This document shows positions 22,484 through 23,162 of a stretch of 32,896 nucleotides of DNA, in pieces. The stretch lies in assembly GCF_006345805.1 (NCBI RefSeq), contig NW_021832491.1:1-32896 (forward strand), in the 5' to 3' direction. The DNA comes from Octopus sinensis (taxonomy: Eukaryota). Within the stretch, counting starts at the first letter, position 1, and the number at the start of each line of letters is the position of its first letter. Made by a program: the position numbers.

Positions 22484-23110
22484 ATCATTAATCAATTTAG
22501 GGTAGCAAAAAATTCAGTAAAAATTTATCGCTACCAGCGGCCTATGGAAAGAGAAAATAGTCAAAGACTAATATGTATAAATATAACAATTTAGGAATGG
22601 CCTAAACAGGCCATTCGTCCACCAGAATAGCAGCCAGATCCAACCGCCAAGTAGTGTAATTCGGAAATAAGGTGAAAATTAAAAACATTTACCCTAATTC
22701 ATCTTTTATACGATGCACGTTTCAGTGTCTTTAATGATAGACCCGCTTAATTAAATTAAATTAAGATTGAATCGGCAGTTTATATTTGCTGCCGATAAGT
22801 TTGGCACGAATGCGTTGGTCTTGAAAATTTTAAGACAGATATTCCCGAGGCATTGATACAGTCGCCTCGTGTCTATCCGTCTCTCTCCAGGTTCTTTTAC
22901 TGATGAAGTGTGACCTATGGTAGACTAGCTTAATTTAATTTAATTAAGCTGGTCTATCATTAAAGACACTGAAACGATGCATCGTATAAAAGATGAATTA
23001 GGGTAATGTTTTAAATTTTCACCTTATTTCCGAATTACACTACTTGGCGGTTGGGAGTTCTGGCTGCTCTTTCTGGTGGACGAATGGCCTGTTTAGGCCA
23101 TTCCTAAATT

Positions 23111-23162
<52 letters not shown>

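What the first reader, a model, noticed from the sequence alone, without database searches (positions are those of the whole stretch)
22484..23113. Young fold-back element carrying a perfect hammerhead ribozyme and its own antisense copy
Seen in sequence: a complete type I HHR (22893-22993) with all core bases, a 7-bp stem I, an unusually long stem II and a 12-nt palindromic stem III. About 180 bp of it and its downstream sequence is duplicated in inverted orientation upstream (22585-22765). The inverted copy begins within the AT-rich tip of the stem II hairpin, lacks CTGATGA, and runs about 100 bp further 3' (to 22484). The unit has no ORF and sits inside (TA)n. Established: Penelope-like pLTRs and retrozymes carry type I HHRs with palindromic stem III that can act as dimers, and pLTRs can be inverted. 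Inference: a non-autonomous self-cleaving retroelement whose inversion arose by fold-back or template switch at the stem II hairpin. A read-through transcript could fold either as active ribozyme or as a long dsRNA that blocks it.
Basis: partly seen in the sequence, partly recalled or inferred. Interest (0 to 1): 0.9.

Follow-up and report, generated by a model that had tools for sequence, protein, structure and literature searches.

The report
Truncated Penelope-like retroelement with hammerhead ribozyme
This is most likely the leftover of one retrotransposon insertion of the Penelope-like kind: two shortened copies lying head to head inside a TA repeat, one of them still carrying an intact-looking self-cleaving hammerhead RNA motif, which is a known pattern rather than a new kind of element.

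Summary
A type I hammerhead motif lies at 22893-22993. It has all core bases, a 7-bp helix I, a 64-nt helix II and a 12-nt palindromic helix III, with cleavage predicted after 22986. My descriptor finds it once in the window. It scored in 7 of 4300 shuffled windows at relaxed settings and in 0 of 4300 at the observed helix lengths. No Rfam hammerhead model reports it, even at E<=10.

Bases 22929-23113 recur inverted at 22765-22585, with 3 substitutions and 6 indel events. (TA)n flanks the unit on both sides.

The anatomy matches published Penelope-like element (PLE) insertions feature for feature: HHR near the 3' end, an adjacent inverted 5'-truncated copy, an extension at one end only, and a (TA)n target (PMC8557442, PMC11167929).

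No RT or GIY-YIG ORF and no second locus exist in the window. Whether the parent was autonomous therefore stays open.

A simple snap-back at helix II is contradicted by the 163-nt spacer, which holds the ribozyme's 5' half. A read-through transcript is predicted to fold as a 177-bp hairpin that abolishes the ribozyme fold.

This is a new member of a known kind, of modest interest.

The parts
22426..22485 (.). Left (TA)n flank, part of the presumed target microsatellite
   Evidence: TRF period 2, 31 copies, 90% matches
22486..22584 (-). One-sided extension of the left copy, a candidate PLE 'tail'. In RNA sense it ends with a hairpin (22535-22501) followed by the 9-mer CCUAAAUUG (22501-22493). 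A TA-rich stretch at 22571-22584 abuts the arm.
   Evidence: Unique sequence lying between (TA)n and the arm. The 9-mer occurs only at 22493 and 22587 (+) and 23103 (-) in the window. A shared word of 9 or more was found in 165 of 20000 shuffles, and in 32 of 20000 near the outer end. Hairpins seen in the fold (z = -4.3).
22585..22765 (-). Inverted, 5'-truncated copy. It corresponds to 22929-23113, running from 7 nt 5' of the helix II loop to the 3' end, and lacks CUGAUGA and the 5' strand of helix I.
   Evidence: BLAST E about 1e-80; repeat pairs I20 and I23; alignment with 3 substitutions and 6 indel events
22595..22616 (-). Terminal hairpin of the left copy (9 bp in the fold). Its last C is the first C of the 9-mer at 22595-22587.
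   Evidence: (D4)
22766..22892 (+). Unique centre: sequence upstream of the ribozyme in the right copy. The 5' boundary of the right copy is unknown. Three local hairpins are predicted.
   Evidence: No counterpart in the left arm or elsewhere in the window; local hairpins in the fold
22893..22993 (+). Type I hammerhead ribozyme motif. Helix I is 22893-22899/22987-22993. Core CUGAUGA is 22900-22906. Helix II is 22907-22970. GAA is 22971-22973. Helix III is 22974-22985. A17 is at 22986, with predicted cleavage after 22986.
22994..23113 (+). 3' region of the right copy. It holds the terminal hairpin at 23082-23103 and the 9-mer at 23103-23111. The copy stops 2 nt after the 9-mer, or up to about 15 nt later if the first TA units are element sequence.
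   Evidence: (D4)
23114..23257 (.). Right (TA)n flank
   Evidence: TRF period 2, 72.5 copies, 90% matches

Best explanation
This is the footprint of one retrotransposition event of the Penelope-like (PLE) kind into a (TA)n microsatellite.

Two 5'-truncated cDNA copies of the 3' end of a hammerhead-bearing PLE RNA, or of a short RNA mobilised by PLE enzymes, lie head to head with their 3' ends pointing outward. The right copy (at most 22766-23113, + strand) is long enough to include the whole ribozyme. The left copy (22765-22585, - strand) breaks off inside the helix II hairpin, but runs about 99 nt further at its 3' end (to about 22486).

Inferred mechanism: the element's endonuclease cut both strands of the AT-rich target, and each 3' end primed reverse transcription of an RNA. 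Initiation occurred at one of two internal start sites, each marked here by a hairpin followed by CCUAAAUUG. That gives one copy with a 'tail' and one without. The two cDNAs were then joined in the middle.

The ribozyme is a component of the element's RNA and is not needed for insertion. Neither copy ends at the cleavage site, so the templates were uncleaved. At this locus it most likely has no host function. If transcribed alone, the motif could cleave after 22986 as a monomer or, better, as a dimer through its palindromic helix III. In a transcript that also contains the left arm, the long hairpin would win.

Shown: the motif, the repeat, the flanks and the fold energies. Inferred: PLE origin, priming on both strands, two start sites, and any activity.
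For: Motif and repeat are real and not chance.

Each structural feature matches the published description of PLE insertions:
- 'high degree of 5'-truncation'
[quoted passage not shown] - '(TA)n, preferred targets'
These phrases are from PMC8557442, passages seen.

Biochemistry of a Poseidon PLE (PMC11167929, parts 1-2 read):
- The protein cleaves and extends both strands of an AT-rich target.
- RT starts at two internal sites, and the sequence between them is the 'tail'.
- Unprocessed RNA is the main template.
- Its RT start lies 85-92 nt 3' of the ribozyme cut site. Here the right copy ends 127 nt 3' of the cut site.

Window evidence for two start sites:
- The 9-mer recurs only at the ends of the arm and of the extension.
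- Each occurrence is preceded by a hairpin in the same register.
- (TA)n lies outside the whole 628-bp unit on both sides, so the extension sits inside the interrupted repeat.

Other points:
- Palindromic helix III is typical of PLE hammerheads in flies, rotifers, shrimps and mosquitoes. Opposite-strand motif pairs 100-700 bp apart, and single motifs from truncated PLEs, were reported (PMC4209133).
- The predicted homodimer MFE is the double hammerhead with a 12-bp intermolecular helix III, at -88.3 kcal/mol against 2 x -36.8.
- At both arm differences inside the ribozyme part (22950, 22977), the complete right copy has the structure-compatible state.
Against: - No RT or GIY-YIG domain was found. 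Pfam was run on 70 of the 152 ORFs of 70 aa or more in the window; I left out the other 82, mainly frames lying in microsatellite arrays. It was also run on 69 of 83 ORFs of 40 aa or more in 19.5-26.6 kb; 11 were dropped as low complexity and 3 lay in a CA array.
- There is no direct terminal repeat or partial tandem.
- There is no second copy in the window, and no eukaryotic collection was available. Membership of a repeat family is therefore untested.
- No Rfam hammerhead model matches.
- The pair next to the core is A-U, whereas G10.1-C11.1 is called highly conserved in PLE hammerheads (PMC4209133).
- Helix II is far longer than the 6-8 bp reported there.
- The extension is about 99 nt, not 30-40.
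- The TA-rich 14 nt at 22571-22584 could be target repeat. In that case 22486-22570 would be an unrelated piece, and the 9-mer recurrence a coincidence (0.8% of shuffles).
- The ribozyme fold is not the predicted MFE. It lies 1.0 kcal/mol above it and holds 4.5% of the ensemble for the 101-nt motif, and much less in longer contexts.
Confidence: 0.7

Rival explanations
1. It is a dedicated non-autonomous fold-back retroelement. On this view the whole unit (inverted arm, spacer, ribozyme arm) is the transposing entity and is copied as such. The antisense arm serves as a built-in regulator of the ribozyme or as a source of double-stranded RNA.
For: There is no ORF in the unit. The hairpin is very stable and abolishes the ribozyme fold. 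Non-autonomous PLE derivatives are known: putative non-autonomous Chlamys elements (PMC8557442) and non-LTR retrozymes related to pLTRs (10.64898/2026.07.22.740005).
Against: The inverted arrangement is a routine by-product of single PLE insertions (PMC8557442), so it needs no special element. The arms are unequal: one is truncated inside a hairpin and the other lacks the extension. That looks like two independent truncations, not a conserved design. No second copy was available to show that the unit transposes as a whole.
Confidence: 0.12
2. It is a fold-back or MITE-like DNA transposon with roughly 181-bp terminal inverted repeats, inserted at TA. The hammerhead-like motif would be fortuitous or captured.
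For: Long inverted arms end at 22585 and 23113, next to TA-rich sequence on both sides. There is no coding capacity.
Against: The full hammerhead descriptor was met in 0 of 4300 shuffles at the observed helix lengths, and it straddles the spacer-arm border. The one-sided 99-nt extension inside the (TA)n tract has no place in a TIR element. No target duplication can be read in (TA)n. This model explains fewer features than the PLE model.
Confidence: 0.07
3. It is an assembly or read artefact: a fold-back chimera that created the inverted arm.
For: Inverted PLE structures are said to cause problems in shotgun assemblies (PMC8557442). Three of the 6 indels between the arms lie in homopolymer runs, which suggests a noisy long-read consensus.
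Against: The arms are not identical. They are separated by 163 nt of unique sequence and are only about 181 nt long. The inverted similarity stops at the arm ends and does not continue into the flanks. The left arm also carries a unique extension.
Confidence: 0.04
4. It is a host-exapted ribozyme or hairpin-RNA gene, for example a small-RNA precursor made from helix II or from the 177-bp hairpin.
For: The 19-bp helix II extension and the long arm-arm duplex are Dicer-like substrates in principle. Only sub-threshold hairpin-type miRNA model hits were seen (for example 19.8 bits against a gathering score of 65).
Against: No miRNA family reaches its gathering score. There are no conservation data. 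The locus lies in a repeat-dense stretch.
Confidence: 0.03

Closest known systems
Hammerhead ribozymes in the terminal repeats (pLTRs) of Penelope-like elements (Cervera and de la Pena 2014, PMC4209133; Craig et al. 2021, PMC8557442)
   Same: Both are type I topology with the full catalytic core and a short palindromic helix III that allows a double-hammerhead dimer. Both lie near the 3' end of the inserted unit, often occur as single motifs from truncated copies, and are sometimes paired on opposite strands. Both sit in (TA)n or AT-rich targets with an adjacent inverted 5'-truncated copy and a one-sided extension.
   Different: Helix II here is 64 nt (5 bp, internal loop, 19 bp), against 6-8 bp reported. 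The pair next to the core is A-U, instead of a bulged nucleotide followed by G-C. Helix III is 4 bp plus a tetraloop rather than absent or 1-2 bp. No RT/EN ORF and no direct pLTR are present at this locus. Sequence homology to any curated PLE could not be tested.
Poseidon element PAc of Anolis carolinensis, studied in vitro (Frangieh et al. 2024, PMC11167929)
   Same: A ribozyme lies about 100 nt upstream of the point where inserted copies end. There are two alternative RT start sites associated with a stem-loop, which gives copies with and without a 'tail'. The target is AT-rich. Both target strands are cut and extended, which would give head-to-head copies. Uncleaved RNA serves as the template.
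   Different: The PAc tail is 30-40 nt, whereas the putative tail here is about 99 nt. The PAc start sites lie in an AC-rich stem-loop with no homology to the target. Here the sequence after the first 9-mer is UA-rich and could anneal to the (TA)n primer. Nothing here was tested biochemically.
Metazoan non-LTR retrozymes (Cervera and de la Pena 2020, PMC7229834; Li et al. 2026 preprint, 10.64898/2026.07.22.740005)
   Same: Both are short, non-coding and AT-rich with a type I hammerhead. Retrozymes are proposed to derive from PLE terminal sequences.
   Different: Retrozymes are direct tandem repeats of 150-450 bp with one ribozyme per unit, giving circular RNAs, and have helices I and II of about 6 and 4 bp with loop-loop contacts. 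Here there is one ribozyme, no direct repeat, and an inverted partial copy. A single cleavage site cannot release a circle.
Twin-priming inversions of LINE-1 insertions
   Same: A second priming event on the other target strand yields an inverted 5' segment joined to a direct 3' segment within one insertion.
   Different: In L1 twin priming the inverted segment comes from a more 5' part of the same RNA, so the arms are not duplicates. Here both arms copy the same 3' sequence, which implies two templates or a multimeric one.

Membership tests
Hammerhead ribozyme, type I | Conserved core: C3 U4 G5 A6 N7 G8 A9, G12 A13 A14, A15.1-U16.1, and H17 not G | tested here: met
   CTGATGA at 22900-22906, GAA at 22971-22973, A22974 paired with T22985, A22986
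Hammerhead ribozyme, type I | Three helices around the core, with helix I open-ended | tested here: met
   Helices of 7 bp, 5+19 bp and 4 bp. The descriptor was met once in the window and in 0 of 4300 shuffles at these lengths. The predicted MFE keeps helices I and II but pairs part of the core with helix III. The ribozyme fold lies 1.0 kcal/mol higher.
Hammerhead ribozyme, type I | Match to curated covariance models (Rfam hammerhead families) | tested here: not met
   0 matches at gathering on the whole window. No hammerhead family appeared among the 17 matches at E<=10 on 1001 nt, or among the 26 on 116 nt. The 64-nt helix II is the probable reason, but this was not tested.
Hammerhead ribozyme, type I | G10.1-C11.1 pair closing helix II (called highly conserved in PMC4209133) | tested here: not met
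   The pair is A22907-T22970, and the next pair is G-C. The effect on activity is unknown.
Hammerhead ribozyme, type I | Tertiary contacts between helix I and helix II loops | not testable with these tools
   A 5x5 internal loop lies 5 bp from the core in helix II, and helix I has no obvious internal loop within its 7 bp. No 3D method for RNA was available.
Hammerhead ribozyme, type I | Compensatory changes among relatives, and self-cleavage | not testable with these tools
   Only one partial second copy exists, no eukaryotic sequence collection was available, and there is no bench.
Penelope-like element insertion | ORF with RT and GIY-YIG endonuclease | tested here: not met
   Pfam found no RT or GIY-YIG domain in 70 of the 152 ORFs of 70 aa or more, or in 69 of the 83 ORFs of 40 aa or more within about 3 kb. 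Absence is expected for 5'-truncated copies, so it does not exclude PLE origin, but the defining gene is absent here.
Penelope-like element insertion | Hammerhead motif in the terminal region near the 3' end of the unit | tested here: met
   The cleavage site lies 127 nt before the end of the right copy
Penelope-like element insertion | Adjacent inverted 5'-truncated copy forming inverted repeats | tested here: met
   22765-22585 against 22929-23113
Penelope-like element insertion | Direct pseudo-LTR or partial tandem | tested here: not met
   No direct repeat of element sequence was found
Penelope-like element insertion | 'Tail' extension at one end only (30-40 bp in the literature) | tested here: inconclusive
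   The one-sided extension at 22486-22584 is about 99 nt. The repeated hairpin plus 9-mer module supports the tail reading. The length is atypical, and a TA-rich break at 22571-22584 allows another reading.
Penelope-like element insertion | AT-rich or (TA)n microsatellite target | tested here: met
   (TA)n lies on both sides
Penelope-like element insertion | Sequence similarity to a curated PLE consensus or to RT-linked copies in the same genome | not testable with these tools
   No Repbase and no eukaryotic genome collection were available. The supplementary consensus files of PMC8557442 are closed.
Metazoan non-LTR retrozyme | Direct tandem repeats of 150-450 bp, each with a type I hammerhead | tested here: not met
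   There is one motif only and no tandem unit
MITE or fold-back DNA transposon | Two equivalent termini with a target-site duplication | tested here: inconclusive
   Inverted arms are present. However, there is a one-sided 99-nt extension, and a duplication cannot be read within (TA)n.

The most novel reading that the evidence does not exclude
The unit is not debris but a conserved design. On this reading it is a PLE-mobilised, non-coding fold-back element in which the antisense arm gates the ribozyme. Transcripts starting inside the spacer would cleave. Read-through transcripts would form a 177-bp hairpin that feeds small-RNA silencing of the family. The duplicated 'hairpin plus CCUAAAUUG' module would be the RT start signal of a PLE lineage with an unusually long (about 99-nt) tail and a hammerhead class with a 64-nt helix II that current covariance models miss.
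Probability: 0.08. Interest if true: 0.6.

Novelty: new member of a known kind. Interest (0 to 1): 0.3.

Why it matters
The locus is a tidy natural example of what recent biochemistry proposes for Penelope-like elements: priming on both target strands, and two alternative internal RT start sites. It is readable in a single insertion.

It also shows that hammerheads with a long helix II escape all Rfam models, so counts of such ribozymes based on those models may be too low.

Beyond that it is an ordinary repeat-derived sequence. Nothing suggests a host function.

Tried and rejected
- Rfam at gathering on the whole window, and at E<=10 on two nested stretches, gave no hammerhead hit. I did not test a version with a shortened helix II, because that would be an altered sequence.
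- A search for further copies in the window (BLAST, word 9) found only the internal inverted pair and low-complexity TA matches.
- A min-HHR descriptor (optional bulge, helix III a bare palindrome) over both strands found only the same site.
- The Pfam scans for RT/GIY-YIG found nothing. The only sub-threshold hits were unrelated. One example is MG3 (16.7 bits, cut-off 23.1) in a frame that on reading is microsatellite-derived. I therefore did not spend a protein database search on it.
- tRNA scan: 0 genes.
- Simple cDNA snap-back at the helix II hairpin was rejected, because the arms are separated by 163 nt that include the ribozyme's 5' half.
- Assembly fold-back was rejected as unlikely (non-identical arms, a spacer, and no inverted similarity in the flanks).
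- Not done: any search of other genomes.
The HHR alignments of PMC4209133 and the consensus sequences of PMC8557442 may contain this family.
- The literature search for hammerhead or retrozyme plus 'octopus' listed 15 of 48 papers. Two of those 15 held the word 'octopus'. In the one I looked at (PMC8557442) it concerns Naiad elements, not hammerheads.

Full report
**1. What is there**

Reading 22200-23400 and extracting the parts by coordinate confirms a type I hammerhead motif on the + strand:
- Helix I is 22893-22899 paired with 22987-22993 (7 bp).
- CUGAUGA is at 22900-22906.
- Helix II runs from 22907 to 22970. It consists of 5 bp, a 5x5 internal loop, a 19-bp stem with two G-U pairs, and a 6-nt loop.
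- GAA is at 22971-22973.
- Helix III is 22974-22985, a perfect 12-nt palindrome that folds as 4 bp plus a tetraloop.
- A17 is at 22986, so cleavage would fall after 22986 in a GUA triplet.

Two details weaken 'perfect'. First, the pair next to the core is A-U. It can also be read as the extra nucleotide after A9 that PLE hammerheads typically have, followed by G-C. That reading leaves an atypical extra U before G12. Second, no Rfam hammerhead model reports the site. There were 0 matches at gathering on the window. No hammerhead appeared among 17 matches at E<=10 on 1001 nt, or among 26 matches on 116 nt. The identification therefore rests on a descriptor, not on a curated model.

**2. Is it more than chance?**

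My descriptor requires the core, helix I of at least 5 bp, helix II of at least 4 bp and up to 90 nt, helix III of at least 3 bp, and H17 not G. It hits once in the 32,896-nt window on both strands together. A looser 'minimal' descriptor hits the same site only.

Dinucleotide-preserving shuffles of the window gave at least one relaxed hit in 3 of 300 runs and in 4 of 4000 runs. The two rates differ more than I expected and I cannot explain why. At the observed helix lengths the count was 0 of 4300.

The 101-nt motif folds far better than its shuffles (z = -8.0, with 0 of 200 shuffles as good). Most of that comes from helix II.

**3. The inverted copy**

Bases 22929-23113 recur in reverse complement at 22765-22585 (E about 1e-80; pairs I20 and I23). 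Counting by hand from the alignment, I find 3 substitutions and 6 indel events in about 185 columns. Three of the indels lie in homopolymer runs and may be consensus noise.

The copy starts 7 nt on the 5' side of the helix II loop. It therefore carries the loop, the 3' strand of helix II, GAAA, helix III and the 3' strand of helix I, but not CUGAUGA.

Both differences inside the ribozyme part disrupt structure in the left copy only. One is T against G at 22950. The other is an A at 22977 that is missing from the left copy, which breaks the palindrome.

Between the arms lie 163 nt (22766-22928). This stretch is unique in the window and contains the ribozyme's 5' half.

**4. Flanks and extension**

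(TA)n lies at 22426-22485 and 23114-23257, so the whole 22486-23113 unit interrupts one microsatellite. Between the left (TA)n and the left arm lie about 99 nt of unique sequence (22486-22584).

Read in RNA sense (minus strand), the left copy ends with two similar modules:
- a hairpin at 22616-22595 followed by CCUAAAUUG at 22595-22587
- a hairpin at 22535-22501 followed by the same 9-mer at 22501-22493

In both, the last C of the hairpin is the first C of the 9-mer. The fold has z = -4.3.

The 9-mer occurs nowhere else in the window except in the right arm (23103-23111). A shared word that long appeared in 165 of 20000 shuffles of the extension, and in 32 of 20000 near its outer end.

The right copy stops 2 nt after its first 9-mer. 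The left copy stops 9 nt after the second.

The sequence following the first 9-mer in the left copy is UA-rich (22584-22571). It aligns loosely with the first TA units to the right of 23113.

**5. Surroundings**

The longest open frame in the unit is 57 aa.

Pfam found no reverse transcriptase or GIY-YIG domain in two scans:
- 70 of the 152 stop-to-stop frames of 70 aa or more. I left out the other 82, mainly frames lying in microsatellite arrays.
- 69 of the 83 frames of 40 aa or more in 19.5-26.6 kb. I dropped 11 as low complexity, and 3 that lie in a CA array.

The window is dense in microsatellites (75 TRF rows) and in two dispersed SINE-sized repeats. There are no tRNA genes. The flanks beyond the (TA)n share no inverted similarity.

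One of the dispersed repeats looks to me like a cephalopod SINE. That is recall only, and I did not test it.

**6. Folding**

For the 101-nt motif, the ribozyme secondary structure is 1.0 kcal/mol above the MFE (-35.8 against -36.8) and holds about 4.5% of the ensemble. The competitor pairs UGAUG of the core with CAUCG of helix III. In longer contexts the share drops further (1.4e-4 for 22860-23030).

Two copies of the motif are predicted to form the classical double hammerhead, with a 12-bp intermolecular helix III. That dimer scores -88.3 kcal/mol against 2 x -36.8.

A transcript of 22484-23113 folds at -355.7 kcal/mol, with 177 arm-to-arm pairs and none of the 35 ribozyme pairs. Enforcing the ribozyme helices costs 56.7 kcal/mol.

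These are secondary-structure energies only. They ignore tertiary contacts, proteins and folding during transcription.

**7. Interpretation**

Every feature has a published counterpart in PLE insertions. Craig et al. 2021 (PMC8557442; passages seen) describe:
- a high degree of 5' truncation
- an inverted 5'-truncated copy immediately adjacent, forming inverted repeats
- a 30-40-bp tail, often at one end only
- (TA)n as preferred targets

Frangieh et al. 2024 (PMC11167929; parts 1-2 read) show for a Poseidon element that:
- the protein cuts and extends both strands of an AT-rich target
- RT starts at two internal sites, and the interval between them is the tail
- uncleaved RNA is the main template
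- the ribozyme needs protein to cleave

Cervera and de la Pena 2014 (PMC4209133; parts 1-2 read) report three relevant points. Some PLE hammerheads have a small palindromic helix III. Motif pairs occur on opposite strands 100-700 bp apart. Most motifs are single remnants of truncated PLEs.

I therefore read the locus as one PLE-type insertion made of two 5'-truncated copies primed from the two target strands. The right copy started at the proximal site and the left copy at the distal site. Neither copy ends at 22986/22987, so the templates were uncleaved.

(TA)n preference together with a canonical hammerhead points away from Naiads, which lack canonical HHRs, and towards Neptune-like or other canonical clades. 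This last step is inference from the passages, not a test.

**8. What does not fit, and rivals**

Several points do not fit the PLE reading:
- The defining RT/EN gene and a direct pLTR are absent.
- The tail would be about 99 nt rather than 30-40.
- Helix II is much longer than reported for PLE hammerheads.
- 10.1-11.1 is A-U.

A simple cDNA snap-back at helix II is contradicted by the 163-nt spacer. A stall or template switch in that stable hairpin remains a reasonable cause for the left copy's truncation point.

A MITE-like DNA element (0.07) explains neither the hammerhead nor the one-sided extension.

An assembly fold-back (0.04) is unlikely, given non-identical arms, a spacer and non-palindromic flanks.

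A host small-RNA gene (0.03) has no support beyond sub-threshold hairpin hits.

**9. Comparison and novelty**

The locus works like, and most probably is, a PLE-derived hammerhead-bearing insertion.

It is not a metazoan non-LTR retrozyme in the defined sense. Those are direct tandem units giving circular RNAs (PMC7229834, passages). A 2026 preprint argues that retrozymes derive from PLE termini, and that most PLE insertions are 5'-truncated with a single terminal repeat (10.64898/2026.07.22.740005, abstract and sections 14 and 16 read).

The new elements are modest. One is a hammerhead variant with a 64-nt helix II that curated models miss. The other is a pair of hairpin plus 9-mer modules that look like two RT start sites about 99 nt apart.

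Noticed in passing
window 12872-13271, 14129-14549, 16987-17414, 24371-24826, 26693-27116, 30879-31263, 31719-32127 and further partial copies: A dispersed repeat of about 400-430 bp is present in at least 10 copies on both strands, at 85-96% identity. 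It is SINE-sized, with no tRNA gene detected and no Pfam domain in its frames.
   Followed up: partly
window 25639-26058 (tandem dimer), 21732-21969, 5805-5969, 4607-4688: This is a second repeat family of about 185-240 bp. From memory alone it resembles a cephalopod SINE. That was not tested, and the source organism was not sought.
   Followed up: no
window 18-173 and 13540-13768: The same 62-68-bp minisatellite unit is arrayed at two places about 13.5 kb apart (2.5 and 3.2 copies).
   Followed up: no
window 29636-30225 and 30458-30539: A 101-bp unit is repeated 5.9 times at 93% identity, with one more partial unit about 230 bp downstream.
   Followed up: no
window 3000-5800 and 9000-12100: Long pyrimidine- or C-rich arrays are present ((TTC)n 372 bp, (ACC)n 314 bp, CT-rich 33-112-bp units, (CA)n 385 bp), with GC skew down to -0.78. 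Overall TRF lists 75 rows in 32.9 kb, an unusually high microsatellite load.
   Followed up: no
window 22486-22616 (minus strand) and 23082-23113: A module of a hairpin followed by CCUAAAUUG occurs twice in the same register, and the two copies of the element stop just after one or the other. These are candidate alternative reverse-transcription start sites.
   Followed up: partly
window 22929-23113 versus 22765-22585: Six of the nine differences between the arms are indels, and three of them lie in homopolymer runs. This hints at residual long-read consensus errors in this assembly rather than real divergence.
   Followed up: no
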